From a virus (Duplodnaviria > Heunggongvirae > Uroviricota > Caudoviricetes), in the IMG/VR virus record IMGVR_UViG_3300028833_002727: a DNA stretch of 64,000 nucleotides; one strand, 5' to 3'. This document shows, piece after piece, positions 30,438 through 59,650 of the stretch (its first letter is position 1; each line of letters starts with the position of its first letter). The notes below the pieces were generated by a model, which saw nothing but the letters and a program-made list of their open reading frames with translations, ran no database searches and was not told the origin of the DNA. The position numbers were made by a program, and so were the translations under genes.

Positions 30438-31238
30438 ATGGGAAAAGTTAAAAAAGACAGTTTAGGTGACAGAATGAAAAGATACGAGGGTGTAAGCAAA
30501 AACACTCTTGTATCTCGTATGCCAGTAATTCTTAGATTGGATGGCTGTCACTTCCACACATTTACAAAAGGTTTTCAAAAACCATTTGATGATGTTTTAA
30601 TGAAATCAATGAAAGACACTATGAAGTATCTTTGTGAGAACATTCAGGGCTGTGTATTTGGTTACACTCAATCTGATGAAATCACATTGGTATTAGTGGA
30701 TTATCAGAACATCAATTCATCACCGTGGTTTGATAACGAGGTACAAAAAATGTGCTCTGTTGCATCATCTATGGCTGGTATGTTCTTTGCACGTACGTTT
30801 GCATACAACGTACTAATGTCAGAACTCAATGAAGATGATAAACTATTCAAGGTTTATAACAATGCAATTAACCGTGGTGCTTACTTCGATTGTAGAGCAT
30901 TTAACGTTCCACAGAGCGATGTTTGTAACTGTGTTCTATGGCGCCAGCAAGACGCAACAAGAAACTCAATACAAGCATTAGCACAAGCTAACTTTTCTCA
31001 AAAACAACTACATGGCTTGAGTTGTGATAAACTTCAAGATAAACTGTTTGTTGAGAAAGGCATTAACTGGAACAATTTGTCAACTGACAAGAAACGTGGT
31101 TCTGCATGTATTAAGCAGAAGTATTCATTCACTAACCAACATGGGGAGGAAACAATCAGAATGCGTTGGATTGTTGATGATGATATGCCTATTCTCACAC
31201 AAGATAGGGATTATATTGAGAAACTAATTTATTTTTAA
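30438..31238 (+). CDS. Thg1-like protein (tRNA-His guanylyltransferase family 3'-5' nucleotidyltransferase)
   Basis: VILRLDGCHFHTF, KPFDDVLMKSM and FGYTQSDEITLVL align with the Thg1 signatures VVVRLDGRNFHRF, KPND...LM and YGQSDEYSFVF. Confidence 0.8.
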   Translation: MGKVKKDSLGDRMKRYEGVSKNTLVSRMPVILRLDGCHFHTFTKGFQKPFDDVLMKSMKDTMKYLCENIQGCVFGYTQSDEITLVLVDYQNINSSPWFDNEVQKMCSVASSMAGMFFARTFAYNVLMSELNEDDKLFKVYNNAINRGAYFDCRAFNVPQSDVCNCVLWRQQDATRNSIQALAQANFSQKQLHGLSCDKLQDKLFVEKGINWNNLSTDKKRGSACIKQKYSFTNQHGEETIRMRWIVDDDMPILTQDRDYIEKLIYF

Positions 31239-35080: not shown

Positions 35081-35192
35081 GGGCTATTAGTTTAATGGAG
35101 TACGACGCGTCTATTAAAGAAGTTTAACTTCGACTCGTACGCTAGAATGCCAGGCAGTCCTGTTGAATGAGGTTCGATTCCTTGATAGTCCG
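35081..35192 (+). ncRNA. tRNA-like element A (112 nt). It has a 7-bp acceptor, a canonical T-arm and an unresolved core with an extra long hairpin.
   Basis: GGGCTAT pairs ATAGTCC. The T-arm is TGAGG-TTCGATT-CCTTG. The element lies ~70 nt downstream of promoter copy 1. Confidence 0.35.
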
Positions 35193-37199: not shown

Positions 37200-37730
37200 C
37201 AAAAATCCAACACACCATTCCGTAAGTGGTTGAGGTTGATGTCTTTGTAGAGTATAGCGGTTACGGACGTGATTTTCTACATCTGGCTAAAGGCAATAAT
37301 ATAGTGAAACCTGGTTATCACGGCGCCTAGAGTGCGCAATTCGGGTTCAAATCCTGGCTATTGACAATAAGAGAGGCATACAGCAAAACAAAAAACTATT
37401 TTTTTAAAAACATTGAATTTGGGTTTCAAAAACGTTATAAAAAAGTGCCTCTTGTACTCAAGTATATATAGCCGCCACCCCCAAGTACAAGGGGCACACC
37501 AGACTTACATGGTTATCTCTTTTCCTGGAGAGATTGTAAAATAGGGCATTAGGAGCGAGTTAGTTGGATCAGAACTTATCTGATTAGAGAATTGCCCGCA
37601 GTCTGCGAACGTAAATAAGCAGTAATGGTAGATATGGGGAGCACTGAATTACGTAATAGATGTTTCATGAAACTATCTAAAAGTGACAAGCAAGCCACTT
37701 TAGCGTGTGATAAAACCGCACAGGGCGCCG

Positions 37731-39542: not shown

Positions 39543-40829
39543 ACAACAAAAGATTACTTATTACTGATCTTCTACTATAAATTTTATAAGTGTTAGGATT
39601 GGAAGTGTCCATACTTAATGAGTGGTTGCCCACCGGATCTATTAACGCCCATTGGTAACAGATGGAAACGCAACTTAGTCGGATAAATGGAAAAAGAAAC
39701 TTTAAGTTCAATTTTATGTGAGTGTAACTGAAAAGGAATTGCATAAAATATATTTACCTTTGGTGTAAAAACACGCTTATATAATTTTTTTACGTATATT
39801 TAAAACGAAGAGAGACGTACAGCAAAACTCACACTTTATTGGAAAACAGCAAATTTTCTACCAAAAGCAAATTGTCTCTTGTAAATGCTTGAATACTTTT
39901 CATAAGCAACATATACGGAAGACGTACAGCAAAGCATTTTTAGGATAACACTTTTAATGTTAAATTCTTGTCTTCTGAACTACAGTTGGCAACTGACTTA
40001 TAGTTGCGGAGAAAATCGGGATGATAACCCGTTGACTGTTGTGTGTTTTCAACATGACGTGAACACTCGCTGAGGTTAGAATTTTTCCGCATAGGCTAAT
40101 CACCAGAAATTCAAATTTTTCAACTCCACCATTTCATTGGTGGACAAAGACACGAAACCCTAACACGGTACTAAATTCGTGACTGCCAGGTTATAAGGTT
40201 GCTCCTGACAAAAATAGTTCTTAGGTGAACGGTATGCCAATAAGCTTTTAATTAGCGCCTGAAGCAGACTTTCTTCGGTGGGTGAAAGTCAAACCTGGGT
40301 CGCGCCAGGATTGGTAGCAAATAATAACTTATGTGCCTGAATAAGCGGTAGACTGCTGCTAAAGGACGTATTGTTGTACTGAAAAGTACGCGGTGCGGTT
40401 AACGGGCATTACGAAGCATAAAGTTGAATTAGCCACGGTTGGCCAACCGTGAGTGACGTAAGAACAGGACAAATCGTGTTTTATGACTGAGGTCTGTATC
40501 CTGTTGGAGGTAATCATTCCTCCCACCCATTCAAACTAAGAGAGTTGCTAACTCTTAGGGGTGTGACTGAATAATGTGCGTAGTGTTTGGTTTTATAGGT
40601 AGTCAGGAATCCTATCATTTGTTATTACCTTTTATGTCTTATGTTGTATTATTCTTTTTTGTGAGATATAAACAACTGTCCCAAGACATTAGACTTGTGA
40701 AAGGCTGTAGTGTTTGTTTTATTAGTTTTCTGTCAAAGTGCAGTAACCTTGACGTCAGGACAAAACATGAAAACTAATTTTTATCGTGGCAGAGTGAAAC
40801 GGATATGTCGATAAGCATTTCGGCAGACA

Positions 40830-40887: not shown

Positions 40888-40961
40888 GATAGCGTAGCTC
40901 AACTGGTTAGAGTGCTGGCCTGTCACGCCAGTGGTTGCGGGTTCGAGTCCCGTCGCTATCG
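40888..40961 (+). tRNA. tRNA-Asp(GUC)
   Basis: GATAGCG/CGCTATC acceptor. CTGGC-CTGTCAC-GCCAG anticodon arm. Confidence 0.85.
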
Positions 40962-40998
40962 CTAAAGATAGACGTACAGCGAACAACTAACTCATTTG

Positions 40999-41082
40999 GG
41001 AACTATGGGTCGTGGGTTCGAGTCCCGCCCGCCCGACTAAATAACACAAATCGGGCGGTAGCTCAGTTGGCAGAGCAATAGT
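40999..41082 (+). other. Permuted tRNA locus 1. The 3' half (41002-41036) lies upstream of the 5' half (41052-41082).
   Basis: The 3' half is ACTAT-GGGTC-GTGGG-TTCGAGT-CCCGC-CCGCCCG-A. A 15-nt spacer follows. The 5' half is CGGGCGG-TA-GCTC-AGTTGGCA-GAGC-A-ATAGT. The acceptor strands are perfectly complementary and the anticodon-stem halves ATAGT/ACTAT are complementary. Leader ATAGAC is complementary to trailer GTCTAT. Confidence 0.45.
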
Positions 41083-41489
41083 AGAGAAAAAAATGTCTAT
41101 TGTAATTTTATGTTGTGTTATTTTCTTTTTGTAAATATGAACAACAGTGAGTAAACACTATAACATCTGGCGGAGAGGTGTGGATTTGTTCCACGTTTCC
41201 AGCGCGGTAACGCTCTAAAATTCCAGTAGCCCGTAGGTGAGCGGGTGAAGAGACTGTGGAGGGAAGAGGCAACGAACCCTGTGAAACAGTAATATCATAA
41301 GCCAAATTTCGGTTGGTAGATAATCACCTTCCAGTATTGATGCAAACTTTGTAATAGGGTGAAACAATGTTACATCGGGCAACCCCGTTTGCGTTTCTAA
41401 GCGGCTAGGATGTAGGTTGACACTTGGTAATACGAGTGGGGCTACGGACACCGACAAGGCTTTTTGGTTGCTCATCAATACTTTTTAAT

Positions 41490-41564
41490 GGGGGATTAGC
41501 TCAGTCTGGCTAGAGCACCTGCTTTGCAAGCAGGGGGTCGTGGATTCGAATTCCACATCCTCCA
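41490..41564 (+). tRNA. tRNA-Ala(UGC)
   Basis: GGGGGAT...CCTGC-TTTGCAA-GCAGG...GTGGA-TTCGAAT-TCCAC-ATCCTCC-A. Confidence 0.85.
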
Positions 41565-41637
41565 CTTTTGTAAAAAAAAAGTTCGAAATAAGTATTTTTC
41601 CACACTAATGAAGTATTTATATATAAACAATAAAAAT

Positions 41638-42552
41638 ATGTATATAGATATTTCAACAGAAGAAAAAAAACAAGAATTTATACTACTTTTAAGTAGGTTT
41701 AAACGGAAAGGGGATATATTCAAATATTATCAAGTATCAGACAACACAAAAAATACAAGATATTTAAACAATATATTACAAACATTAGGTATAAACAATG
41801 AGTTTTTTTCCAAAAAAAGAAAAGAAAAGAAATTTTGTTTAAAGTGTGGTAAAGAATTAAAATATGGACAACATAAATTTTGTAGTAACAGTTGTTCGGC
41901 ATCTTACAACAATAAAAATAGAGAATATAGTGACGAAGTAAAACAAAAAATACGTGTTGGTGTTTTATTGTCTATGGGTATAACAGATATTGAAACATAT
42001 AGAAATACCAGCACAGAAAAAAAATGTGGGTACTGTGGTAGAATGTTCACTACAGCAAAAAAACATCAAAAATTTTGTTGTCAAGAATGTTCAAGAAGAA
42101 ACAGAAGATTACAAGAAATAAAAAATAAGGACGAAAGGGATATATATAAAAGTCAAACTAAATTCAATTTTAGTTTAAATGCTTATCCAGATGAGTTTGA
42201 TTTTTCCTTAATCAAAGAAAATGGTTGGTATCAAGCGACAAATCATGGTGATAACTTACGTGGCATTAGCAGAGATCATATGTTTTCAGTAGATGAAGGA
42301 TATAAACAAAATATAGACCCGTATTTAATTTCTCATCCAGCAAATTGTAAATTGATGAAACATGAAGACAACTTTAAAAAGAAAACAGAATGTTCAATAA
42401 CACTTAATGAACTAAAACAAAGAGTTAATGATTGGAATAAAAAATACGGAGTATATGAAAATAAAATAGATTATACAAAATTAGAAAAATTTAAGGAAAT
42501 GCAGGGTTCGAATCCCGCATCCTCCACAACTAATAATAATGTTAAACAATAA
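41638..42552 (+). CDS. HNH homing endonuclease with N-terminal CxxC zinc-finger repeats
   Basis: GISRDHMFSVDEGY...NCKLMKHEDN HNH motif. The start is placed after the conserved leader GAAGTATTTATATATAAAC. The 3' end of the ORF overlaps a degenerate copy of the tRNA-Ala 3' end. Confidence 0.7.
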   Translation: MYIDISTEEKKQEFILLLSRFKRKGDIFKYYQVSDNTKNTRYLNNILQTLGINNEFFSKKRKEKKFCLKCGKELKYGQHKFCSNSCSASYNNKNREYSDEVKQKIRVGVLLSMGITDIETYRNTSTEKKCGYCGRMFTTAKKHQKFCCQECSRRNRRLQEIKNKDERDIYKSQTKFNFSLNAYPDEFDFSLIKENGWYQATNHGDNLRGISRDHMFSVDEGYKQNIDPYLISHPANCKLMKHEDNFKKKTECSITLNELKQRVNDWNKKYGVYENKIDYTKLEKFKEMQGSNPASSTTNNNVKQ

Positions 42553-42682
42553 AAAACGAAACAACTATGAAAAATCACATTCATTGGTAGATTCGTAGAA
42601 GTCGTTCTCCTAATGTGTTTTTGTTAATCTAAGGAGGTAACAAAAATCAAAATTAAATTAACAAAAAATAAACACATTAAAA

Positions 42683-43090
42683 ATGGAGAATAAAACTATG
42701 AAAACTACAGAACAAATCAATCAAATTAAAACATTAAAACGCTTAATTGCGGAAATGGTAGCAGAACACAAGGCTACTAAATTAAACGAAGGACGCTACG
42801 GTAAATTCCGTAACGAAAGAGAACGCCTATTCATTGCATATACGGCTTACTATATGCTTCGTCATGGCATCGAAGACTTTGATGCATACATCGAGTCAGT
42901 AATGAACAAATTAAAACCAGAAAAACAAAATAAGGAGTATCCTTACCAGTTCTTCGGTGTTGAATTAGAGTCATTACCTCGTTGGAATAGATGGGGAAGC
43001 GTTAAGAATGCAGTAACCCATTGCATCGAATGCTTGGACAAAGTTATTGCTAAGGAGCAAGAAAATGCAGTTGAAGATGGAAACGAGTAA
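42683..43090 (+). CDS. Hypothetical protein
   Basis: ORF with a GGAG ribosome-binding site. Confidence 0.4.
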   Translation: MENKTMKTTEQINQIKTLKRLIAEMVAEHKATKLNEGRYGKFRNERERLFIAYTAYYMLRHGIEDFDAYIESVMNKLKPEKQNKEYPYQFFGVELESLPRWNRWGSVKNAVTHCIECLDKVIAKEQENAVEDGNE

Positions 43091-43376
43091 CCGCCTTTAC
43101 ATCCTCGTAAGTGAGGATTTAGCACCAATCTACGGCGCTGTACAGGGCGGGCACGCAATAGCGCAGTGGATGTTGGAACATTCCGACAATCTCTACTGGA
43201 AAAACGAAACTGTTGTGTATTTAAGTTGTAATGTTGAAAAGATGAAGTATCTACTTGAATGGGATGATATATCCATATTCAGAGAACCTGATCTTAATAA
43301 CAAACTTACAGCAATCGCAGTAGTTGGTAATCCAAGAAATGAACGAATGTTCAAGAAATTGAGACTTCTTCAATGA
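43065..43376 (+). CDS. Pth2-like peptidyl-tRNA hydrolase (start uncertain: 43047, 43065 or 43077)
   Basis: YILVSEDLAPIYGAVQGGHAIAQW resembles the PTH2 GKxAAQxxHAA core. The C-terminal KKLRLLQ resembles the PTH2 tail. Confidence 0.5.
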   Translation: MQLKMETSNRLYILVSEDLAPIYGAVQGGHAIAQWMLEHSDNLYWKNETVVYLSCNVEKMKYLLEWDDISIFREPDLNNKLTAIAVVGNPRNERMFKKLRLLQ

Positions 43377-43418
43377 ATGTCATAAAAAATTTGGGCGTTG
43401 AAATATACGCCTGAATAT

Positions 43419-43490
43419 GACCTATTAGTTCAACGATAGAACGGTACCCTCTAAAAGTATGCGTCGCGGGTTTGACTCCTGCATAGGTCA
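43419..43490 (+). tRNA. Putative amber-suppressor tRNA(CUA)
   Basis: Acceptor GACCTAT/ATAGGTC. D-stem GTTC/GAAC. Anticodon arm GTACC-CTCTAAA-AGTAT with U33 and A37 in place and a C31-A39 mismatch. T-arm GCGGG-TTTGACT-CCTGC. Confidence 0.45.
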
Positions 43491-43655
43491 CAAATGTTTA
43501 TATGTAGTAGTTACATGTTTAGAACGATCAACAAAACACAACATATGAAAGCATATGGGATAAAATGGATTCTGCTATTACACCGCAGTTCATAAGTATG
43601 TTTACCGTGGAGAATCGGGAATCGGTAATGTAACTATTAACTTGTAATCATAGTT

Positions 43656-43740
43656 GCCACATTGGGACAGTTGGTCGACTCCGCTTGACTTGTAATCAAG
43701 ATGCTTATGCGCGCCGTCGGTTCGAATCCGGCATGTGGCT
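43656..43740 (+). tRNA. tRNA with anticodon UGU (Thr) but an 85-nt type-II-like body (15-nt variable region)
   Basis: GCCACAT/ATGTGGC. CTTGA-CTTGTAA-TCAAG. GTCGG-TTCGAAT-CCGGC. Confidence 0.5.
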
Positions 43741-44461
43741 CTAAATAAGGTTGACGGTAGATGTCATTAAATCATTCTACAGAACTAAATTTACTGAGTT
43801 CAGTACTCCTCACGGGGAGTTCAAAGTAAAAAGGGGTGCCGAGTCCTCTTGAGCCTTATGACAGTTTACGTTCAATATTCAGAGGGGAGTAGCTTTGAGC
43901 GAAATTAAAACATCTGACCCTTATTTGGTAGTTGGACGTTATCCTATATTGTCCGTCTGATGTTCATGCGCAGAACAGTCATTCGTAAAAATCGTAATCG
44001 AACACCTCTTTAGTTCGAAATGAAGGGTTGTGGTAAATCTAATGCTTAGTGTTACGGATAAGATAGCAACGCAGTATGCTAACAAGACTATGCTGCTCAT
44101 TTTTTGGACGCGGTTGTTTTATGGTTAAAAAACATCCTAGCCTCTTCGGAGGTTGAACCAATAGTATCACCCAACTCGCAGAGTTAGGACGCTAAACCAG
44201 TGGCGCGCCAAAGATATTCGTCAGGCGCTGAGCCTTTCGCCAGAAGGCAGTGGTGATATTTTTAATAGTCGCTCATCCGACTTATTTTCCTGGTTTTGTA
44301 TAAATCAGGTGGTGGCCAAGCCGTGGGTTTTTTACCAAATACCCTGCATCGTTTTTTGGGTTGGAGTTAAGCATTGGCAAGATTGTGATGCTCATTAGTG
44401 AATTCGGTTAAAGTCCGAAAGCTTCATCCCCCTTACAAAACGGTGTGAACTAATAAATTTT

Positions 44462-44532
44462 TGCCTTCTAGTATATCGGTATTACACCTGACTCTGACTC
44501 AGAAGAGCGGGGTTCGATTCCTCGGAGGGCGA
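44462..44532 (+). tRNA. tRNA-Gln(CUG), weak stems
   Basis: TGCCTTC/GAGGGCG with two G-U pairs. Anticodon loop CTCTGAC. T-arm CGGGG-TTCGATT-CCTCG. Confidence 0.45.
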
Positions 44533-44726
44533 CAAAGATAACATCAAGAAACGACGATACCAAAGTGGTTAGGATAGCGATGTAAGACGTGATACTCTAT
44601 ATGGTATTGAGAATGGGAGTAGTAAGCGTTATCCGTGGTGTTATCTAACATTGTCCCATAGTGTAACTGGCTAACACCTGATAAATTATGGGATGTTTTT
44701 ATGAAAAATCATAATTTTCAATATAT

Positions 44727-44812
44727 TGCCTCTTGGTGTAACTGGCTAGCACGTCAGATTTTGATTCTGGAGGGTCCGAAAGGCATTGGGGGTTCGAATC
44801 CCTCAGAGGCAA
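44727..44812 (+). tRNA. tRNA with anticodon UUG (Gln) and a long 18-nt variable region (86 nt)
   Basis: TGCCTCT/AGAGGCA. GTGT-AACTGGCTA-GCAC. TCAGA-TTTTGAT-TCTGG. GGGGG-TTCGAAT-CCCTC. Confidence 0.5.
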
Positions 44813-45120
44813 CAATAGTAGAACGTATAGTTTAATGATAGCGCGCTAAAACATGTAGAACAACGGCGTAGTAAGTCGTAGGTATAGGTTTGATTCCTTT
44901 TGCGCTCTGAATCAGTCACTGATGTTGTCAAGACTCGTTCTTGGCTGGGATATAAAAGCATTACACTGGTAAAATTTTTCTGAAAAAAACACAAAATATC
45001 ATATAAAAGTTGTATATTTAACTTGAAGAGAGACTTACAGCACAATTTAAGATTTCCACAATCTAAACCAAACGTCTCTTGACAAAAAATAAATACAATC
45101 AAAAAAAACAATCACAAGTA

Positions 45121-45651
45121 ATGCCTAAAAAGGGATTAGTAATTAACTTAATTGGCGGGCCTGGTAGTGGTAAGTCAACCACAATGGCTGGAGTTTTCTA
45201 TAAACTCAAAAAAAACGGTGTAAATTGCGAGATTGCTACGGAGTTTACCAAAGAAAAAGTCTGGGAAGAAGATTATAGGATGCTGGACGATCAGTTGTAC
45301 ATCATTGCTAAACAATTCCACAGAATTAGTCGTTTAATCGGAAAAGTAGATGTAGTGATTATGGATACATCATTGCTAAGTTCCGTAATATACGATAAAA
45401 GCGGTAGTCAAAACCTGAAAGGCTTGTGTATTGAGTGTTTCAATCAGTTTGATAACATGGTATTCTTCATCGACAGAAGTGACATCAAGTATCATACAGA
45501 GGGAAGAGTAGAGTCACAAGAAAAAGCAAAGGAAATTGACGAAAGTTACAAAAAACTCATGGAAGAGAATAATATACCATACACAGTTGTAACTAATGAA
45601 AATTGTGTTGATGTTATTTTCCGACAATTGAAAGAAAAAGGATATATTTAA
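45121..45651 (+). CDS. P-loop NTPase/kinase (AAA_28/NadR-RNK-like or nucleotide/polynucleotide kinase-like)
   Basis: Walker A INLIGGPGSGKST and Walker-B-like VVIMDTSLLS. The ATG at 45121 is preferred over the TTG at 45079. Confidence 0.5.
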   Translation: MPKKGLVINLIGGPGSGKSTTMAGVFYKLKKNGVNCEIATEFTKEKVWEEDYRMLDDQLYIIAKQFHRISRLIGKVDVVIMDTSLLSSVIYDKSGSQNLKGLCIECFNQFDNMVFFIDRSDIKYHTEGRVESQEKAKEIDESYKKLMEENNIPYTVVTNENCVDVIFRQLKEKGYI

Positions 45652-45757
45652 GGAGTTCTGCCTTAAATGTTCAAAAATAACCTATAAGAGAGACTTACAG
45701 CAAATTTCTACTTTATTTCTGCGTTAATTAGAAAAAAAAAGAATGTCTCTTGTATTT

Positions 45758-45848
45758 GGAGGGTTGGCAGAGTTGGTCGATTGCGTCGGTCTTGAAAACC
45801 GAAGATCCCGTAAGGGGTCCGGGGGTTCGAATCCCTCACCCTCCGCCA
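45758..45848 (+). tRNA. tRNA-Ser(UGA) with encoded CCA
   Basis: GGAGGGT/ACCCTCC. TCGGT-CTTGAAA-ACCGA. Long variable arm. GGGGG-TTCGAAT-CCCTC. G73 then CCA. Confidence 0.85.
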
Positions 45849-46163
45849 AAATATGTATAAGTCGACTATCGGGTTAGAGATGATATGAAGCGCAGTGAGA
45901 GACTGCAACTAAACGGGTTCGACTCCCGCTTGGGCACAATTGCAATAGGAATCATTCTTATACTTAACTAAGCCTATTCCTGCTCGTAGGTATCCGAGTG
46001 AGCAGAGGGGGTCGAGCTGCTGACAGCCATACGTATAAGTAGCAGGTACTTCTTACCTTAAAGAGGCTTTTCTCTGGGTTCAGGGGCGATTTATTTGTTG
46101 TTCGTGAACAATAAATAGCATGTTGGATGCTTCAGGTGGAGGGATACCACCATCAATTTTTAT

Positions 46164-46238
46164 CTGGGTATAGTTCAGTCCGGCTAGAACACTACATTTG
46201 GGATGTAGGGGTCGCAGGTTCGAATCCTGCTATCCAGA
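46164..46238 (+). tRNA. tRNA-Pro(UGG)
   Basis: CTGGGTA/TATCCAG. CTACA-TTTGGGA-TGTAG. GCAGG-TTCGAAT-CCTGC. Confidence 0.8.
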
Positions 46239-46255
46239 CAATGTAAAAATTGAAT

Positions 46256-46906
46256 ATGGGAAAAAGTAGACCTTATACGTGGAAATGTGATGTTTGTGGT
46301 GAAGTTTTTAAAACTAGAAAATTATTATATTCCCATTGGAATGAAAAACCAGAACACCATATTATTAAAACATCTGCAACTTATAAAGGTGAATATTATT
46401 GTAAATATTGTAATAAATTTTGTGATCAGTTAAATTCGTTACATTTACATGAAAAACATTGTATTTTAAATCCAAATCGCATTGATGGCGCATCAAAAGG
46501 TAGAACAATGACAGATGAGTTTAAGAAAAAACAATCTGAAAGAATGAAAGAACGCCATAAAAATGGGACAGCTGTTTCATTAGCACATCTAAGAAGTAAA
46601 GAAAAACCGTCATATCCAGAGCAGTGGCTAATGGAAGTAATAAAAAATGAAAATATTAATTCAGAGTATATTAGAGAATATAAATTTCACACATTTTCTT
46701 TAGATTTTTATTGGGAGAAAAAGAAAAAAGTTATTGAAATGGATGGTAGATTTCATAAAATTTCTGAATATCAAAAAGATTGTGATAAAAGGAAAGACGA
46801 ACAACTTAAAAAAGATGGAATAGATGAAATGAGAATTGATTGGGAATATTGTTATAAACATCCAAAAGAAGTAATTAAAAAAATAAAAGATTTTATTGGA
46901 GAGTAA
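46256..46906 (+). CDS. Homing-endonuclease-like protein with two C2H2 zinc fingers and a C-terminal DUF559/Vsr-like PD-(D/E)xK domain
   Basis: C2H2 fingers CDVCGEVFKTRKLLYSHWNEKPEHH and CKYCNKFCDQLNSLHLHEKH. LDFYWEKKKKVIEMDGRFH...DEMRIDWEY is Vsr-like. The stop overlaps the tRNA-Ser(GCU) start. Confidence 0.55.
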   Translation: MGKSRPYTWKCDVCGEVFKTRKLLYSHWNEKPEHHIIKTSATYKGEYYCKYCNKFCDQLNSLHLHEKHCILNPNRIDGASKGRTMTDEFKKKQSERMKERHKNGTAVSLAHLRSKEKPSYPEQWLMEVIKNENINSEYIREYKFHTFSLDFYWEKKKKVIEMDGRFHKISEYQKDCDKRKDEQLKKDGIDEMRIDWEYCYKHPKEVIKKIKDFIGE

Positions 46907-46985
46907 TGCTTGATGGTGATAGCGGCAACCTGCTAAGTTGTGCGCACCTGAAAAATGGTGTCTGGTTCGATTCCAGTGCTCTCCG
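46898..46985 (+). tRNA. tRNA-Ser(GCU)
   Basis: GGAGAGT/GCTCTCC. GCAAC-CTGCTAA-GTTGT. Long variable arm CACC...GGTG. TTCGATT T-loop. Confidence 0.8.
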
Positions 46986-48079
46986 CCTTTTCAAAGAGCC
47001 AATTTGAAGAGTGTTTCTTAATGATTATTTATCGTTAAAATAATCATGTGACTCCATTGTTTCAAAATGAATCAATTCGTGGCTGGCTACGGTTACCAGA
47101 ACCCTTTTCACTTGCAGGTTAAAGTATATGTTTGTGGGTAGAACAAAAAACCCTCATTTTGGTATACTTTGTTGGCTCAAAGTATACTTTCTAAAAAACA
47201 GTGGCTTGGCTGCATACCATAAGAACTGCTCCGAGTCCGATTTTATAAATGTCTAAGAAAGGTATCGGTACGAGTGGGGAGAGCCATGAGCACAATGACT
47301 GCTATACGCTGCACAACGTCACCGGACGATAAGCACTGAGCCTAACGGTACACACTAAGGATAATAGTCGAGTACTATCAACTCTCTAATGGTGTGTGAA
47401 GCTCTTATGCGTTGCTCGAAGAATAGACAATTTGCAATGTGGCGCATAAGGTTATAGCCAGATACCAATGAAAGTACCGAAGACATTTTTACTCTAATCT
47501 CAAACCTTGGGGTCTTGTTTTATTTCTGAATCCCCATGCATATAGTAATTATCGGATGTCGACTGAAAGAGATTACGATTATGGTTCGTCCCTGAGATTA
47601 CGTTATAGTTACAATTATTCGTTCACACTTATCGAAGGCTTACCTAGGGTTTTTGGGTAAAAGTGAATTCATAGAGAGCCGAATTGTAATTTTTATACAA
47701 CACCGAATCCATTCATGTGATATTCGATATAACTGAGAACTAATCACGTTTTCCTGAATGGCGTTGCTACTCAATGGTATGGAGGCATACTGAGTACCGT
47801 AGGCGTTACGAAAACATAGCCTGGCTTTCATTTTTAAGGTGTTGTTACTTTTACAGAGGATGCGAAACATCTAAGTCATAGGCGTACGCTGCTGAGATTA
47901 CATCAATGATTGCAGATTCAACTAAACGATTAGTAGCACCTGATGAGTAGGCGTCGTAACTCATCTTAACTGTTTTTTAGTCAATCAATATGTCCACGTC
48001 TTTCGGGACGTTAAATGTTGTTTACCAATGGTAAGGAACAATGGTTTCCAACGCTGAACCAGTTAATCAGCGTTTAGAT

Positions 48080-48151
48080 GGGTTTGTTAGTTTAACGGTA
48101 GAATGAGACGTTGTGGCCGTCAAGACAATGGTTCGACTCCATTACAGACCC
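48080..48151 (+). tRNA. tRNA-His(GUG) with a genomically encoded G-1 (48080) and C73
   Basis: G-GGTTTGT/ACAGACC-C. AGACG-TTGTGGC-CGTCA. AATGG-TTCGACT-CCATT. Confidence 0.65.
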
Positions 48152-48292
48152 CCCACTATAAAAATAATAAATAATAAATGGTGTTAATTATTTTGTGAAC
48201 CTTAAAATTTTAAAGAAAAAAAAACAAAAAAAATGAGTTCGAAACGTTATTTTTTCACTTTTAAAAATATTTATATATAAACATATATTGAT

Positions 48293-49057
48293 ATGAAAGT
48301 AAGTGATTTAAAAAAAGAAGAAGTAATTCACGCGTTACAACAAAGTAAAACAAAATTAGATTTTTTACATATTTTTGGTTATAAAAATAATGGAAGTGGT
48401 TATCGTTTTGTTGAAAATGTTATTAAATATTTTAAAATTAATATATACGATTATTTAGATAAAAAAATCACAGAAGACGAATATAATAAACACCCATCGT
48501 GCTGTAAATATTGCGGTAAAAAATTGAATTATAGTAAACGTAACAACAAATTCTGTTCGAAATCATGTTCTGCTTCGTATAATAATTCAACTAGGGTTCA
48601 TTCTATAACCTCAAGATTAAAAACTTCAAAAGCATTATCAGGGGAGAATGCAACGAAAGAAATTAAAGAATGTAAATTGTGCGGTAGAACATTTATAGGT
48701 GATAAAGATTTTTGTTCTGGTAAATGTAGAAAAACATTCGAAAATAATGATAAACTTGATAGATGGTTGAATGGCGAAAATTTTTTACGTGGAGCAACAC
48801 AAGTGCCTACTTTTGTGCGTAAATATTTAATGAATAAATATAATTGTCAATGTCAAAGATGTGGGTGGGGAGAAGAAAATCCATACACACATACGGTACA
48901 ATTAGAAATACATCATATTGATGGTGATTGCACAAATAATAAAAAAGAAAATTTACAATTATTATGCCCGAATTGTCATTCACTGACTGAAAATTTTGGT
49001 TCATTGAATAAAATGTCACATAGATTTCATAGGAAAAGAGTGACATTACAAAATTAA
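48293..49057 (+). CDS. HNH homing endonuclease
   Basis: CQCQRCGW...LEIHHIDGDCTNNKKENLQLLCPNCH. Conserved leader upstream. A tRNA follows 5 nt downstream. Confidence 0.8.
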   Translation: MKVSDLKKEEVIHALQQSKTKLDFLHIFGYKNNGSGYRFVENVIKYFKINIYDYLDKKITEDEYNKHPSCCKYCGKKLNYSKRNNKFCSKSCSASYNNSTRVHSITSRLKTSKALSGENATKEIKECKLCGRTFIGDKDFCSGKCRKTFENNDKLDRWLNGENFLRGATQVPTFVRKYLMNKYNCQCQRCGWGEENPYTHTVQLEIHHIDGDCTNNKKENLQLLCPNCHSLTENFGSLNKMSHRFHRKRVTLQN

Positions 49058-49061
49058 ATAA

Positions 49062-49136
49062 CGGCTCGTAGCTCAGCCTGGTTAGAGCACCACACTGATA
49101 ATGTGGGGGTCGCAGGTTCAAATCCTGCCGAGCCGA
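49062..49136 (+). tRNA. tRNA-Ile(GAU)
   Basis: CGGCTCG/CGAGCCG. CCACA-CTGATAA-TGTGG. GCAGG-TTCAAAT-CCTGC. Confidence 0.85.
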
Positions 49137-49146
49137 CAAAATATAT

Positions 49147-49220
49147 GACAAGGTGCCTGAGTGGACTAAAGGGGCGCTCTGCAAAAGCGTTGTTCGTCGG
49201 TTCGAATCCGACCCTTGTCT
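49147..49220 (+). tRNA. tRNA-Cys(GCA)
   Basis: GACAAGG/CCTTGTC. GCGCT-CTGCAAA-AGCGT. GTCGG-TTCGAAT-CCGAC. Confidence 0.85.
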
Positions 49221-49394
49221 CAAAAAAAAATGTAACTTTTTGAAAATAACAGATATTTATTATAAAAAGGAAATAAAATGGGTAAATACGGAAAAGATAT
49301 GAAGAAGTTTGTCGGCTATTTTGGTAAATGGCTTAATCTATTTTCGTGTTCACAAGTTAAAAGGTGATACTTTATTTGGATCAGAGATATTCAA

Positions 49395-49433
49395 ACCTTG
49401 ATACTGTGAACAAACGCGTATCAAGGTTTTTTT
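49395..49433 (+). terminator. Rho-independent terminator
   Basis: ACCTTGATA...TATCAAGGT stem followed by TTTTTTT. Confidence 0.55.
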
Positions 49434-49440
49434 ATTGCAA

Positions 49441-49478
49441 AATATTTGGTTATTTGAAATAAAAGTAGTATCTTTGCA
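49441..49478 (+). promoter_or_regulatory. Promoter repeat copy 3
   Basis: TTTG at 49445-49448 and TAtcTTTG at 49469-49476. Confidence 0.55.
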
Positions 49479-49490
49479 TCGTGAAATAAT

Positions 49491-49575
49491 GACCTCGTAG
49501 CTCAGCTGGTTTGCGTATGCTTAGAGCACCTGCCTTTTAAGCAGGGGGTCGTGGGTTCGAATCCCACCGGGGTCA
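49491..49575 (+). tRNA. tRNA-Lys(UUU) variant with a ~10-nt insertion in the D-loop (85 nt). It is a possible pseudogene or variant.
   Basis: GACCTCG/CGGGGTC. D-loop AGCTGGTTTGCGTATGCTTA. CCTGC-CTTTTAA-GCAGG. GTGGG-TTCGAAT-CCCAC. Confidence 0.5.
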
Positions 49576-49738
49576 CAAGAATCAATTCGGTGGATGGTAA
49601 CATGTACATTGGGCGGTTGTACACTATGTGTCGACGGGAGTGCATGACTTGGTTCTTTTTTTGAAAATTAAAATAAAAAACGTATATTTATAAACGAAGA
49701 GAGACTTACAGCAAAACAACATTATCTATCAATCCATG

Positions 49739-49825
49739 TTAAGGAAGGGGTCGCGGGTTCAAGTCCCGTCATCGTCTCAAAAAAAAAATGTATGACGATG
49801 TAGCTCAGTTGGTTAGAGCACTTAA
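49739..49825 (+). other. Permuted tRNA locus 2. The 3' half (49739-49777) lies upstream of the 5' half (49794-49825).
   Basis: The 3' half is TTAAG-(9 nt)-GCGGG-TTCAAGT-CCCGT-CATCGTC-T. A 16-nt spacer follows. The 5' half is GACGATG-TA-GCTC-AGTTGGTTA-GAGC-A-CTTAA. The acceptor and anticodon-stem halves are complementary. It sits inside a unit bounded by AGAGAC...GTCTCT. Confidence 0.45.
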
Positions 49826-49962
49826 AAATAGAAACCGTCTCTTGTATTTTTTGAAAAACAAAACAAACAAACAGAAACAATGATGAAGACTAAGAAACAT
49901 ATGAAGAAAACGTAATATCGGTGACAAATTGTGTCACTGGTTACTATTCAACGTGCCCGTGG

Positions 49963-50916: not shown

Positions 50917-51095
50917 TGCGGGGTAGAGCAGAGGCAGCTCGTCAGGCTCATATAATGTGATAAGCATTAACAATCTTATCGAGACTATTGTTTAAAGTTC
51001 CGTATTATAATCGGACTGGAAATCAGCTGTAAGTGGGTTCGAAACCCATCAATAGTCCAACCTGAAGGTCGGTGGTTCGAGTCCACCCCCCGCAA
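50917..51095 (+). tRNA. tRNA(CAU) (Met or Ile2) carrying a ~107-nt insertion/intron in the anticodon loop (50954-51060)
   Basis: TGCGGGG/CCCCGCA acceptor. GAGC-AGAGGCA-GCTC D-arm. TCAGG-CTCATAA-[107 nt]-CCTGA. AGGTC. GGTGG-TTCGAGT-CCACC. The insertion carries its own hairpins. Confidence 0.5.
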
Positions 51096-51251: not shown

Positions 51252-51351
51252 GCCGAGATAGTGCAGTGGTTAGCATGTCGAATCAATACTGACGTGAAAA
51301 CGTTATAGGGGTTGCTCTTCGAAGACTGAGGTTCGATTCCTTGTTTTGGCT
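51252..51351 (+). ncRNA. tRNA-like element C (100 nt), same T-arm as element A
   Basis: GCCGAGA/TTTTGGC with two G-U pairs. GTGC-AGTGGTTA-GCAT. A 5-7 bp stem with the 9-nt loop AATCAATAC. A 31-nt variable region. TGAGG-TTCGATT-CCTTG. Confidence 0.35.
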
Positions 51352-53460: not shown

Positions 53461-53631
53461 AAAAGACTGTGTAGGTAGGGGTTTGTAGCGCTAACTGCAA
53501 ATCAACCGCCGACAATGGCACAGAAAGAAAGCACATGGATGCGGTATTGGGGCATAACGTCCCCTTTATCTCAACCACCTTTAGCGGGGTAAAGTGTGTT
53601 AGTATGGAATGTTGGTTCAATTCCAACCACA
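53461..53631 (+). tRNA. tRNA-like with a ~97-nt insertion in the anticodon loop. Candidate anticodon GCA (Cys). D-arm unresolved.
   Basis: Perfect acceptor GACTGTG/CACAGTC. GCTAA-CTGCAAA-[~97 nt]-TTAGT. GTTGG-TTCAATT-CCAAC. Confidence 0.35.
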
Positions 53632-56081: not shown

Positions 56082-56155
56082 GCCCCGTTAGCTCAGCTGA
56101 ATAGAGCGTCCGGCTACGAACCGGAAGGTCGCAGGTTTGAGTCCTGCACGGGGTA
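56082..56155 (+). tRNA. tRNA-Arg(ACG)
   Basis: GCCCCGT/ACGGGGT. TCCGG-CTACGAA-CCGGA. GCAGG-TTTGAGT-CCTGC. Confidence 0.85.
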
Positions 56156-56372
56156 CAAATAATTACGCAATCCATCGCGCCCATTCGATAGAAGTAAGTG
56201 GTGAGGAAGTTCAGGACACTCATTTGGGAGTGAAAGTCTAAGTATAGGTGGTTACCCAAATTATTGCCTCCAGGGTAAGACGAATAGTTAAATGATGGAT
56301 ATAGGTACAGAATCCTGGCTATTACGTAATTATTTTATTACAACAATAATAATAAACAAAAAAACAAAAGAC

Positions 56373-59259: not shown

Positions 59260-59623
59260 ATGGGGCTGTTTGGCTTTGACTGGAAGATTGATACGATTGT
59301 AAGCATGTAGAGAATGAGAAATCTCTTTAAAAGACTTGACAACACAATAAATGGCGAAAGAACTTACGCTCTTGCTGCTTAATCGAAGCACAGTAGATTA
59401 ACTTTTTCAGATGCAAGGCATTTGAGCAAGACATCACTCCAAGCCGAGTCTGTGGGCTTAATGGATATAGTGGTGCTGGAATACATAGAATAGATGTTAC
59501 ATGCTGTGATGTAATGTTGAAGTTTTAGCAGATAAGGTGACTTTTGATGGTTTGAGTCGTATAGTCGCTCGAAAATCTAAATCAAACTAAACATGTAGAA
59601 AGCGAAAATATTACTTGCAACAC

Positions 59624-59650
59624 ACGGGTTCGACTCCCGTCAGCTCCACC
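59624..59650 (+). other. Isolated tRNA 3' fragment (T-arm plus acceptor 3' strand plus CC)
   Basis: ACGGG-TTCGACT-CCCGT-CAGCTCC-A-CC. No complementary 5' half in the window. Confidence 0.4.

What the first reader, a model, noticed from the sequence alone, without database searches (positions are those of the whole stretch)
40999..49852. Two circularly permuted tRNA loci: the 3' half sits upstream of its complementary 5' half, framed by leader/trailer inverted repeats
There are two such loci, at 41002-41082 and 49739-49825.
- In each, a canonical 3' tRNA half (anticodon-stem 3' strand, variable region, T-arm, acceptor 3' strand, discriminator) is followed after 15-16 nt by a 5' half (acceptor 5' strand, D-arm, anticodon-stem 5' strand).
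- The acceptor strands are perfectly complementary: CGGGCGG/CCGCCCG and GACGATG/CATCGTC.
- The anticodon-stem halves are also complementary: ATAGT/ACTAT and CTTAA/TTAAG.
- The sequence before the 3' half (ATAGAC or AGAGAC) is complementary to the sequence after the 5' half (GTCTAT or GTCTCT). This would extend the anticodon helix across the transcript ends. The architecture matches permuted or split pre-tRNAs described in a red alga and some archaea.
I know of no description of this arrangement in phages or bacteria. The alternative is decayed tandem intron-containing tRNAs, but no matching partner halves occur nearby.
Basis: seen in the sequence. Interest (0 to 1): 0.85.

Follow-up and report, generated by a model that had tools for sequence, protein, structure and literature searches.

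The report
Phage Y-RNA-like tRNA mimics
The two "permuted tRNAs" are real, but they are most likely small non-coding RNAs of the Y-RNA type: a tRNA look-alike whose acceptor end is closed by a loop, attached to a conserved stem that in related phages sits next to a Ro60-like protein gene, rather than genes for working tRNAs.

Summary
At 40965-41103 and 49697-49845 (+) a T arm, a 7-bp loop-closed acceptor stem and a D arm follow in that order, enclosed by an anticodon-type stem and a terminal stem.

The interpretation, pre-tRNAs re-joined into working tRNAs, is not supported. This is the published architecture of YrlA-type Y RNAs, which their authors describe as resembling circularly permuted tRNAs.
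- Both loci hit Rfam YrlA below threshold (38 and 37 bits; cut-off 69).
- A covariance model built only from other phages hits them end to end (105.5 and 90.0 bits).
- All five helices covary in 110 distinct relatives.
- In 35 of 98 related loci a Ro60-fold gene lies nearby, always on the same strand (34 DUF2828/DUF7788, 1 TROVE). An AlphaFold model of DUF2828 matches Ro60 structures.
- Five shorter units in the window share the terminal stem and CAGCAA motif but lack the tRNA part.

Differences from described YrlA:
- the motif is CAGCRAA, not GNCGAA;
- the partner type is DUF2828;
- an anticodon-loop relic is kept (Pro-UGG-like in locus 1, Asn-GUU-like in locus 2);
- no Ro-like gene lies within the window.

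I rate it a new variant of a known kind. RNA expression, Ro-like binding and processing are untested here.

The parts
40965..41103 (+). Y-RNA-like unit 1 with a complete tRNA-like module (whole predicted RNA). It starts a few nt after tRNA-Asp (40888-40962).
   Evidence: Model R2, built without any window sequence, scores 105.5 bits, E 3e-21, model positions 1-131/131. Rfam YrlA gives 38.2 bits on 41004-41080. The MFE fold shows all helices.
40967..40975 (+). Unit 1, terminal stem 5' strand GATAGACGT. It pairs with 41093-41101.
   Evidence: Sequence. Helix 1 is 88.9% paired with changes on both sides at all 9 pairs across the family.
40977..40983 (+). Unit 1, conserved motif CAGCGAA (family consensus ACAGCAAA). 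It lies in the internal loop just 3' of the terminal-stem strand and contains CGAA.
   Evidence: C, A, G, C and two of the A's are invariant in alignments A2 and A3.
40995..41001 (+). Unit 1, anticodon-loop relic TTTGGGA. It is identical to the anticodon loop of the phage's own tRNA-Pro(UGG) at 46164-46239.
   Evidence: ARAGORN on the re-permuted sequence. Comparison with tRNA-Pro.
41002..41082 (+). Unit 1, tRNA-like module: ACTAT, variable loop GGGTC, T arm 41012-41028, acceptor 3' strand 41029-41035 plus A73, 15-nt loop, acceptor 5' strand 41052-41058, D arm 41061-41076, ATAGT 41078-41082.
41093..41101 (+). Unit 1, terminal stem 3' strand ATGTCTATT, followed by GT. It is preceded by an A-rich strand at 41083-41092.
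49697..49845 (+). Y-RNA-like unit 2 with a tRNA-like module (whole predicted RNA). A sigma-70-like site TTGAAA-16-TATATT at 49661-49688 lies just upstream.
   Evidence: R2 scores 90.0 bits, E 1e-17, end to end. R1 scores 72 bits. Rfam YrlA gives 37.1 bits. Promoter scan; promoter-like sites are not above chance overall.
49699..49705 (+). Unit 2, terminal stem 5' strand GAGAGAC (pairs with 49837-49843), followed by TTA and the motif CAGCAAA at 49709-49715.
49736..49742 (+). Unit 2, anticodon-loop relic ATGTTAA. It matches the loop CTGTTAA of the phage tRNA-Asn(GUU) at 6 of 7 positions.
49743..49823 (+). Unit 2, tRNA-like module: GGAAG, variable loop GGGTC, T arm 49753-49769, acceptor 3' strand 49770-49776 plus T73, 16-nt loop, acceptor 5' strand 49794-49800, D arm 49803-49819, A, CTT.
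49837..49843 (+). Unit 2, terminal stem 3' strand GTCTCTT, followed by GT and a T run.
37369..37455 (+). Short unit with no tRNA module: AGAGGCAT-ACAGCAAAAC...AAAAAA-GTGCCTCT-TGT.
   Evidence: R2 32.3 bits, E 1e-4..
39808..39882 (+). Short unit: AGAGACG-TACAGCAAAAC...TGTCTCT-TGT.
   Evidence: R2 24.9 bits, E 0.004..
39915..39978 (+). Short unit: CGGAAGAC-GTACAGCAAAG...GTCTTCTG.
   Evidence: R2 20.3 bits, E 0.05, which is weak. Fold z-score -2.9..
45026..45082 (+). Short unit with a variant motif: AGAGAGAC-TTACAGCACAA...GTCTCTT.
   Evidence: R2 21.1 bits, E 0.03, which is weak. Sequence.
45686..45753 (+). Short unit: GAGAGAC-TTACAGCAAAT...GTCTCTT-GT.
   Evidence: R2 31.2 bits, E 2e-4..

Best explanation
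Both loci encode small structured non-coding RNAs of the Y-RNA class, YrlA-like. Each has two modules.

Module 1 is a terminal helix made by the 5' and 3' ends. Next to it is an asymmetric internal loop carrying the conserved 5' motif (N)ACAGCRAA and an A-rich 3' strand.

Module 2 is a tRNA mimic, a circular permutation of a whole tRNA. It runs: anticodon-loop relic, anticodon-stem 3' strand, variable loop, T arm, 7-bp acceptor stem closed by a 15-16-nt loop, D arm, anticodon-stem 5' strand.

By analogy with Ro60/Y-RNA particles, module 1 would dock on a ring-shaped Ro60-fold protein. In related phages this is the DUF2828/DUF7788 family. Here it would be encoded elsewhere in this >200-kb genome, or supplied by the host. 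Module 2 would act as a handle or decoy for tRNA-binding factors such as RNase P, the CCA-adding enzyme, modification enzymes, PNPase, or tRNA-targeting defence nucleases.

Shown here: the structure, its conservation and covariation, membership of a large phage RNA family, the linkage of that family to Ro60-fold genes, and the Ro60-like fold of DUF2828.

Inferred: expression, binding to the Ro-like protein, any processing, and the biological role.
For: 1. Architecture. Rfam YrlA matches both loci over its tRNA-like core at E 3e-7 and 5e-7 in local searches.

2. Family membership. Model R2, built from 87 sequences of other phages only, hits both loci end to end at 105.5 and 90.0 bits.

3. Covariation over 110 distinct sequences:
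- 92.3% of cells are paired, against 59% in shuffles and 36-45% when partners are slid.
- The covariation score is 0.78, against 0.19 (shuffles) and 0.10-0.14 (slid).
- 29 of 30 pairs change on both sides.

4. The terminal stem is in register in 64 of 98 distinct pattern hits, against 2-14 in shifted controls.

5. Gene linkage. Of 98 related loci, 35 hold a Ro-like gene in the few kb available. The nearest RNA is on the same strand in 35 of 35. The median gap is 379 nt.

6. Cultured examples:
- Klebsiella phage KP13-26 has five tandem units right after its DUF2828 gene.
- Mycobacteriophage BigCheese has a unit right after its 'Ro-like RNA binding protein'.
- Felixounavirus, Aeh1 and Listeria LMTA-34 also carry units.
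- IMG/VR locus L069 has a unit immediately upstream of a Pfam TROVE gene.

7. DUF2828 has a Ro60 fold. An AlphaFold model (pLDDT 80) has its 12 best PDB matches all in Ro60, with 1YVR at E 8e-9 and TM 0.57.

8. Five short units in the window keep module 1 without module 2. This mirrors the YrlA/YrlB pairing.

9. Literature:
- YrlA is described as resembling a circularly permuted tRNA with a closed acceptor stem (10.1101/312249).
- Y RNAs were found in 22 phages (PMC4201824).
- Three very abundant short RNAs lie upstream of the Rsr-like gene of Listeria phage CKA15 (PMC12282133). A phage of the same genus has three CAGCAA units at that position.
- Bas63 gp130 is Ro60-like, lies upstream of the tRNA stretch and counters the Ppl defence system (10.1101/2024.10.10.617714).
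Against: - No Ro-like, TROVE or DUF2828 gene exists in the window or in the flanks I could reach, from about -6.4 kb to +67.8 kb. The rest of the genome could not be read.
- Both loci stay below the Rfam YrlA gathering score (38.2 and 37.1 bits against 69).
- The published Ro-binding motif GNCGAAN0-1G is only approximated in locus 1 (AGCGAAC) and is absent in locus 2 (AGCAAAA).
- Unlike described YrlA, both loci keep a 7-nt anticodon-loop relic. Locus 1 also keeps the tRNA-Pro identity set: C1:G72, A73, G35, G36 and G37. That is more tRNA than a simple handle would seem to need.
- About 20% of family members encode CCA after the discriminator.
- There is no direct evidence here that these RNAs are made, or that DUF2828 proteins bind them.
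Confidence: 0.75

Rival explanations
1. These are true permuted tRNA genes. The transcript is cut at the leader/trailer module and its ends are ligated, for example by RtcB or an Rnl ligase. RNase P and 3' processing then open the acceptor loop. The products would be functional tRNA-Pro(UGG) and a second tRNA, Asn(GUU)-like.
For: - After in-silico re-permutation, ARAGORN finds a canonical tRNA-Pro(UGG) in locus 1. Its loop UUUGGGA is identical to that of the phage's own tRNA-Pro, and it has C1:G72 and A73.
- Locus 2 has the loop AUGUUAA, against CUGUUAA in the phage tRNA-Asn.
- Both have a 7-bp acceptor stem with a discriminator base.
- 22 of 110 family members encode N-CCA exactly after the acceptor strand.
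- The family shows an anticodon-loop signature: U33 58%, R37 92%, A38 78%.
- RNA ligase genes lie near the Ro-like gene in some phages: RtcB in LMTA-34 and an RNA ligase in L223.
- The YrlA authors themselves raised this possibility.
Against: - There is no bulge-helix-bulge motif. The sequences next to the anticodon stem (AGAG.. and ..CUCA|UUUGGGA) cannot pair.
- No splicing endonuclease is known in bacteria (established knowledge), and none was seen among the window ORFs.
- The permutation break point varies between family members, from about 26/27 to 31/32. A single precise excision mechanism would be hard to fit to that.
- Five window units and many units elsewhere carry the same terminal module with no tRNA body.
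- The phage already has tRNA-Pro(UGG) and tRNA-Asn(GUU), and tRNAs for all 20 amino acids.
- U33 is kept in only 58% of members.
Confidence: 0.08
2. The RNAs are tRNA mimics that act without any Ro-like partner in this phage. They could be decoys or competitive inhibitors for host tRNA-targeting defence nucleases. [quoted passage not shown]
For: - No Ro-like gene lies within about 74 kb around the loci.
- The units are scattered among 35 or more tRNA genes rather than clustered beside a protein gene.
- Anticodon-loop relics are retained.
- Encoded CCA is enriched in the family.
- The phage carries a tmRNA, a Thg1-like enzyme and an RNase P-like RNA, so it invests heavily in tRNA biology.
Against: - The conserved terminal module is the part shared with units that lie beside Ro-like genes in other phages. 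It is conserved in sequence (CAGCAA, AG...CT-TGT), which argues for a specific protein partner.
- The genome is larger than 200 kb and most of it was not examined.
Confidence: 0.12
3. These are remnants of tandem tRNA genes (T arm of one, D arm of the next), or of intron-split tRNAs, with no function. Alternatively they are an assembly artefact.
For: - The loci lie in a dense tRNA array with HNH endonuclease genes and several tRNAs carrying long insertions.
- Chen et al. warn that dimeric tRNAs can mimic YrlA hits.
Against: - The acceptor strands pair 7/7 in both loci and covary across 110 relatives, 92% paired.
- No partner halves exist elsewhere in the window.
- True tandem tRNAs in the same scans were recognisable and differ.
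- The loci are identical in separate assemblies.
Confidence: 0.02
4. These are two-piece (permuted) tmRNA-like genes.
For: - The gene order is the same: T arm, acceptor 3' strand, spacer, acceptor 5' strand.
- There is a weak Rfam tmRNA_permuted hit of 16.9 bits, E 0.09.
Against: - The hit is far below the gathering score of 47.
- A full D arm is present.
- There is no tag reading frame and there are no pseudoknots.
- A standard one-piece tmRNA is already present at 59262-59650.
Confidence: 0.01

Closest known systems
YrlA (Y RNA-like A; Rfam RF02553) of Salmonella Typhimurium, Mycobacterium smegmatis and about 250 bacteria and 22 phages (Chen et al. 2014, PMC4201824; Wang et al. 2018, 10.1101/312249)
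   Same: - The order is T arm, loop-closed acceptor-like stem, D arm, enclosed by an anticodon-type stem.
- The 5' and 3' ends pair into a terminal stem next to a conserved motif in an internal loop.
- At family level, the RNA is encoded beside a Ro60-fold gene on the same strand.
- The acceptor stem has 7 bp, as in M. smegmatis YrlA, which RNase P cuts and which then receives CCA.
- Shorter companion RNAs without the tRNA module occur, like YrlB.
   Different: - The motif is (N)ACAGCRAA rather than GNCGAAN0-1G.
- The usual partner is DUF2828/DUF7788 rather than Pfam TROVE.
- A 7-nt anticodon-loop relic is retained, whereas YrlA is described as lacking the anticodon loop.
- The Rfam score is below gathering.
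- In this window the units are scattered through a tRNA array with no Ro-like gene nearby.
Yrl1 and Yrl2 of Thermus phage phiLo with phiRo60 (PMC12135203)
   Same: - These are phage-encoded Y-like RNAs.
[quoted passage not shown]
- They lie upstream of a phage Ro60 gene.
   Different: - No tRNA-like domain is mentioned in the passages I read for phiLo.
- The partner protein there is a canonical TROVE protein.
Abundant unannotated RNAs upstream of the Rsr-like gene CKA15_055 in Listeria phage CKA15 (PMC12282133), and the Ro60-like gp130 of coliphage Bas63 (10.1101/2024.10.10.617714)
   Same: - These are probably the same RNA/protein family.
- LMTA-34, of the same genus as CKA15, has three CAGCAA units exactly there.
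- Felixounavirus phages have units after the DUF2828 gene.
   Different: - Those papers only suggest Y RNAs. No structure, motif or family was defined.
- Identity of the units with the reported transcripts is my inference.
Permuted tRNA genes of Cyanidioschyzon merolae and other algae or archaea (Soma et al. 2007, as cited)
   Same: - The 3' half lies upstream of the 5' half.
- The acceptor stem is initially closed.
- The leader and trailer pair.
   Different: - Those genes use a bulge-helix-bulge motif, a splicing endonuclease and a circular intermediate.
- None of these is evident here.
- Here the leader/trailer module is itself conserved and also occurs without any tRNA body.
Two-piece (permuted) tmRNA of alpha-proteobacteria and cyanobacteria
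   Same: It is a circularly permuted tRNA-like domain in bacteria or phages. One example sits in locus L069.
   Different: tmRNA has a tag ORF, pseudoknots and no D stem. The loci here have none of these features.

Membership tests
YrlA / Y RNA-like (RF02553; Chen 2014 criteria) | tRNA-like module in the order T arm, closed acceptor-like stem-loop, D arm, enclosed by a stem made from 5' and 3' parts | tested here: met
   cmscan alignments to model positions 23-85 and 23-87. MFE folds. Covariation.
YrlA / Y RNA-like (RF02553; Chen 2014 criteria) | Score at or above the Rfam gathering threshold of 69 bits | tested here: not met
   The loci score 38.2 and 37.1 bits. The TROVE-adjacent unit in L069 (33.5 bits) and KP13-26 unit 3 (40.1 bits) also fail. 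The model appears too narrow for phage members.
YrlA / Y RNA-like (RF02553; Chen 2014 criteria) | GNCGAAN0-1G (CGAA) motif near the 5' end, in the region that binds Ro60 | tested here: not met
   Locus 1 has AGCGAAC, so CGAA is present but the flanking G's are not. Locus 2 has AGCAAAA. The family consensus is ACAGCAAA.
YrlA / Y RNA-like (RF02553; Chen 2014 criteria) | Encoded next to a Ro60 orthologue on the same strand | tested here: not met
   No TROVE or DUF2828 gene lies in the window or reachable flanks. At family level the criterion is met: 35 of 98 loci hold such a gene, always on the same strand, at a median of 379 nt. The rest of this genome was not readable.
YrlA / Y RNA-like (RF02553; Chen 2014 criteria) | Physical association with Ro60/Rsr; modification by TruB/DusA; RNase P cleavage | not testable with these tools
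   This needs immunoprecipitation and biochemistry.
Phage 'CAGCAA-type' Y-like RNA family (defined here, models R1 and R2) | End-to-end match to a covariance model built without the window sequences: terminal stem, ACAGCAAA, tRNA-like module, A-rich strand, 3' strand, TGT | tested here: met
   R2 scores 105.5 bits (E 3e-21) and 90.0 bits (E 1e-17), both over positions 1-131/131.
Permuted tRNA genes (C. merolae type) | The 3' half lies upstream of the 5' half of one tRNA, and re-joining gives a canonical cloverleaf with an anticodon loop | tested here: met
   ARAGORN with an intron allowed on the re-permuted sequences gives tRNA-Pro(UGG) for locus 1. Locus 2 gives a less canonical result: Trp(CCA) by ARAGORN, Asn(GUU)-like by my model.
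Permuted tRNA genes (C. merolae type) | Bulge-helix-bulge motif formed by leader and trailer at the junction | tested here: not met
   Read from the sequence. The nucleotides flanking the anticodon stem cannot form helix, 3-nt bulge, 4-bp helix, 3-nt bulge. Instead there is a large asymmetric internal loop (about 28 and 12 nt in locus 1).
Permuted tRNA genes (C. merolae type) | tRNA splicing endonuclease and ligase available; circular intermediate and mature joined tRNA detectable | not testable with these tools
   No endonuclease or ligase domain was seen in window ORFs of 120 aa or more. The host and the rest of the genome are unknown, and there are no RNA data.
Two-piece tmRNA | Match to the permuted tmRNA model, with a tag reading frame | tested here: not met
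   tmRNA_permuted scores 16.9 bits against a gathering score of 47. No tag ORF is present. A standard tmRNA lies at 59262-59650.

The most novel reading that the evidence does not exclude
The CAGCAA-type units are not just handles. They would be a bacterial/phage counterpart of permuted or split tRNAs. [quoted passage not shown] Locus 1 would be Pro-UGG with C1:G72 and A73.

They could be used either in translation or as bait that traps host anticodon nucleases or other tRNA-targeting defences. The variable break point, the anticodon-loop signature across the family and the 20% encoded CCA are not explained by the plain 'handle' model.
Probability: 0.1. Interest if true: 0.9.

Novelty: new variant of a known kind. 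Interest (0 to 1): 0.55.

Why it matters
What the tRNA-like domain of bacterial Y RNAs is for has been open since 2014.

This work shows that a large family of such RNAs is spread through big phages and that curated models do not capture it. I saw more than 100 distinct sequences in IMG/VR. I also saw homologues in phages infecting Klebsiella, E. coli, Mycobacterium, Listeria and Aeromonas.

The family is tied to a Ro60-fold protein family, DUF2828. That family is encoded in at least 711 cultured-phage records. One member, Bas63 gp130, has a reported anti-defence phenotype.

This gives tractable systems for asking what the Ro-like/Y-RNA particle does during infection. Candidate phages are FelixO1-like phages, P100 and mycobacteriophages.

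It also warns annotators that these units can be mistaken for odd or pseudo-tRNAs. One example is the 122-nt 'tRNA-Val' annotated in phage Aeh1.

For the window itself, it turns an apparent first case of permuted tRNAs in a phage into a member of a recognisable RNA class.

Tried and rejected
1. An IMG/VR scan with the window-specific leader motif (AGACNTACAGC...GGGTCGNGGGTTC) gave one hit, L001. It has no T arm and no tRNA, so it is a chance match.
2. megablast of 25 kb of the window against cultured phages found nothing, so no close cultured relative exists.
3. phmmer of the KP13-26 DUF2828 protein against PDB sequences found nothing relevant. A profile search gave phage Ro60 only at E 0.08. 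The fold comparison was needed to settle this.
4. I searched for a Ro-like gene in this phage without success.
   - Pfam on every window ORF of 120 aa or more found none.
   - tblastn with four Ro-like queries found none.
   - hhalign of the 429-aa orphan ORF against the DUF2828 profile gave probability 0.5%.
   - Walking along the 161-kb and 43.6-kb ENA contigs was impossible, because only window proteins can be looked up.
   - I guessed that P0049 came from the same genome because its contig is 161,363 bp. That was wrong; it is a different sample and phage.
5. MAFFT alignments of the whole units (A2, A3) left the 3' strands unaligned. I therefore seeded a model from seven sequences with equal tails (A4) and let Infernal realign the rest.
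6. My first rigid test of a local hairpin against a trans anticodon stem was too simple. The family shows mixed solutions, which I interpreted later.
7. I searched the literature for 'permuted tRNA' with bacteriophage, and for DUF2828. Nothing relevant turned up. Burroughs & Aravind 2016 and the Sim et al. 2020 review were not held.

Full report
**1. What is in the sequence**

The window carries a dense array on the + strand between about 35 and 60 kb. It holds 33 ARAGORN tRNAs plus a tmRNA, and several more tRNA hits by Rfam. HNH endonuclease genes are interspersed. The window has no close relative among cultured phages. It belongs to a genome of more than 200 kb, assembled as ENA ERZ27257202 contigs of 161 kb and 43.6 kb.

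ARAGORN calls nothing at the two reported places. Each locus has a T arm, then a 7-nt acceptor 3' strand and a discriminator, then a 15-16-nt spacer, then the perfectly complementary acceptor 5' strand, U8-A9 and a D arm. The whole is bracketed by a short anticodon-type stem. Further out lies a 7-9-bp stem made by the leader and the trailer.

No partner halves exist elsewhere in the window. Locus 1 is identical in the ENA contig k141_1846247. Locus 2 is identical in ENA k141_1545242 and in a Logan assembly.

**2. First clue to identity**

A permissive Rfam scan matched both loci to RF02553, YrlA ('Y RNA-like'). The match covers the model's tRNA-like core, positions 23-85 and 23-87 of 114. Scores are 38.2 and 37.1 bits, E about 3e-7 and 5e-7 in local searches. 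That is below the gathering score of 69.

YrlA RNAs are the bacterial partners of the Ro60 orthologue Rsr. They consist of a stem formed by the two ends, a conserved motif, and a domain with T arm, closed acceptor-like stem and D arm (PMC4201824). [quoted passage not shown] It also compares them explicitly with the permuted pre-tRNAs of algae and archaea (10.1101/312249). Chen et al. found such RNAs in 22 phages.

**3. A large phage family**

A pattern scan of IMG/VR for a T arm followed 26-40 nt later by a D arm returned 89 loci. Twelve of them had 7/7 complementary acceptor strands and lacked flanking tRNA halves.

These loci and the two window loci share a leader signature. The 5' strand of the terminal stem is followed after 1-3 nt by CAGCRAA.

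A second scan requiring that motif returned 118 loci.
- 78 of 117 matches had at least 6/7 acceptor pairs.
- 70 also had a terminal stem in register.
- Among 98 distinct hits, 64 had a stem of at least 7 bp. When the 5' strand was taken from shifted positions, only 2-14 did.

I built a covariance model (R1) from seven sequences with an explicit structure. I collected 128 matches and counted pairs.
- 92.3% of cells are paired, against 59% in shuffles and 36-45% when partners are slid.
- The covariation score is 0.78, against 0.19 and 0.10-0.14.
- 29 of 30 pairs change on both sides.
- Every helix is supported, including the terminal stem and the closed acceptor stem.

This alignment is fitted to the model, which inflates the figures somewhat. 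The slid controls and the independent stem test point the same way.

A second model, R2, was built from 87 sequences, none from this window. It hits locus 1 at 105.5 bits (E 3e-21) and locus 2 at 90.0 bits (E 1e-17), both end to end.

**4. More units in the window**

Five shorter units carry the same ends but only a small hairpin in place of the tRNA module. The shared ends are AGAGAC-(G/T)TACAGCAAA ... A-rich ... GTCTCT-TGT. The units lie at 37369-37455, 39808-39882, 39915-39978, 45026-45082 and 45686-45753.

R2 scores them at 20-32 bits. The two best have E about 1e-4, and the weakest are marginal. This parallels the YrlA/YrlB pairs of bacteria. It also shows that the terminal module is the constant part of the family.

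**5. The protein partner, at family level**

The blastn hit that led me out of the window was Klebsiella phage KP13-26. There, five tandem CAGCAA units, two of them with tRNA modules, follow directly a 476-aa gene with Pfam DUF2828 and DUF7788 and a weak vWA_Ro60 match.

Of 98 non-window loci with a model hit, 35 contain a Ro-like gene within the few kb held. Thirty-four are DUF2828 and one, L069, is a Pfam TROVE protein. The nearest RNA is on the same strand in all 35, at a median distance of 379 nt.

The DUF2828 protein has homologues in 711 cultured-phage records. Some are annotated 'Ro-like RNA binding protein'. Model hits lie beside it in several cultured phages:
- mycobacteriophage BigCheese
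- a Felixounavirus
- Aeromonas phage Aeh1, where one unit overlaps a 122-nt 'tRNA-Val' annotation
- Listeria phage LMTA-34, which has three short units right upstream and RtcB 1.3 kb downstream

Sequence searches barely connect DUF2828 to Ro60. An AlphaFold model of a family member (pLDDT 80, pTM 0.78) has Ro60 structures as its twelve best PDB matches. These include 1YVR (E 8e-9, TM 0.57), 9KOP and 2NVO. After them come only isolated vWA domains.

Two recent papers independently noted Ro60-like proteins of this kind and guessed at Y RNAs nearby.
- Bas63 gp130 counters the Ppl defence system.
- Listeria phage CKA15 has three very abundant short transcripts upstream of its Rsr-like gene.

Neither paper defined the RNAs.

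**6. What is different from described YrlA**

(a) The conserved motif is (N)ACAGCRAA, not GNCGAAN0-1G. Locus 1 happens to contain CGAA. Locus 2 does not.

(b) Rfam's model does not reach threshold, even for the TROVE-adjacent unit.

(c) The tRNA mimic is more complete.
- The seven nucleotides before the anticodon-stem 3' strand carry an anticodon-loop signature across the family: U33 58%, R37 92%, A38 78%.
- In locus 1 they are UUUGGGA, identical to the loop of the phage's own tRNA-Pro(UGG). Together with C1:G72 and A73 this is the bacterial tRNA-Pro identity set, as I recall it.
- In locus 2 they are AUGUUAA, against CUGUUAA in the phage tRNA-Asn.

(d) The point where the tRNA circle is 'opened' varies between members, from about 26/27 to 31/32.

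(e) 22 of 110 members encode N-CCA exactly after the acceptor strand. Other offsets give 0-2. The window loci do not encode CCA.

(f) In this window the units are scattered among tRNA genes. No Ro-like gene was found from about 6 kb upstream of the window to 4 kb beyond its end.

**7. Mechanism**

Shown: a conserved, covarying two-module RNA structure, family membership, genomic coupling of the family to Ro60-fold genes, and the Ro60-like fold of DUF2828.

Inferred by analogy with Ro60/Y-RNA particles:
- The terminal stem and its internal loop dock on the Ro-like ring.
- The tRNA-like module recruits a tRNA-binding factor.

Locus 1 begins a few nt after tRNA-Asp, so tRNA processing would release its 5' end. 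Locus 2 is preceded by a sigma-70-like site, though such sites are not above chance in this region.

The biological role is unknown. Candidates are RNA quality control, tRNA repair and counter-defence.

**8. Rivals**

A true permuted tRNA gene is not excluded, because the tRNA body is complete. I put it at about 0.08. Against it:
- There is no bulge-helix-bulge motif and no known endonuclease.
- The break point varies.
- The terminal module also exists without a tRNA.
- The phage already has the corresponding tRNAs.

A partner-independent decoy role is possible, at about 0.12. Decayed tandem tRNAs, an assembly artefact and two-piece tmRNA are contradicted by the covariation, the independent assemblies and the lack of tmRNA features.

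**9. Verdict**

The loci are new members of a large phage branch of the Y-RNA/YrlA class that curated models do not capture. I found it only hinted at in the literature, so I rate it a new variant of a known kind and moderately interesting.

Noticed in passing
window 56159-56333 (+), directly after tRNA-Arg(acg) at 56082-56156: A 175-nt match to Rfam archaeal RNase P RNA (RF00373), 44.4 bits against a gathering score of 84, E 1.6e-11. It spans the model end to end and keeps the GAGGAA, AAGUC and ACAGAA blocks. The roughly 131-nt specificity-domain block is replaced by 4 nt. It looks like a minimal, S-domain-less RNase P RNA encoded by a phage. Related IMG/VR phages L046 and L085 carry full bacterial type A RNase P RNA in the same kind of array.
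   Followed up: partly
window 35081-35190; 50917-51095 (tRNA-like insert at 50984-51057); 51252-51351; 53465-53630; orphan T arm at 36373: Several tRNA-like genes have long insertions, or have acceptor strands far apart in normal order. One example is TGCGGGG at 50917 pairing with CCCCGCA after the T arm at 51071. ARAGORN missed or only partly called these. They may be intron-containing or composite tRNAs.
   Followed up: partly
window 59262-59650 and 30438-31238: The phage encodes a one-piece tmRNA with tag GERTYALAA. It also encodes a Thg1-like tRNA-His guanylyltransferase family protein, Pfam 1.5e-30. This is further investment in tRNA and translation repair.
   Followed up: no
window 60457-62580, 62862-63980 and downstream (L096): The window holds a TonB-dependent receptor gene (Plug plus beta-barrel) and a NadR-like gene (cytidylyltransferase plus AAA_28). 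Downstream lie PnuC, a nucleoside deoxyribosyltransferase and a radical SAM protein. A TonB-dependent receptor is unusual cargo for a phage.
   Followed up: no
L221 7065-7332 (Aeromonas phage Aeh1, AY266303.2, record positions about 96384-96505): The record annotates a 122-nt 'tRNA-Val (CAC)'. It overlaps two adjacent hits of the Y-like RNA model, at 34 bits each. This is probably a mis-annotated Y-like unit.
   Followed up: partly
family alignment A5 (IMG/VR loci L102-L199, L095 and the window): C1:G72 closes the acceptor stem in 26 of 110 members. It is enriched among members with a U-GGG-type loop, 10 of 14 against 16 of 96, Fisher p 6e-5. Several of these are close relatives, so the counts are not independent. 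This suggests that one sub-lineage derives from tRNA-Pro.
   Followed up: partly
L069 3913-4204 (IMGVR_UViG_3300036790_000219): A phage contig carries a two-piece (permuted) alpha-proteobacterial-type tmRNA, 134.8 bits. A tRNA array, a Y-like unit and a TROVE gene lie within 3 kb of it.
   Followed up: no
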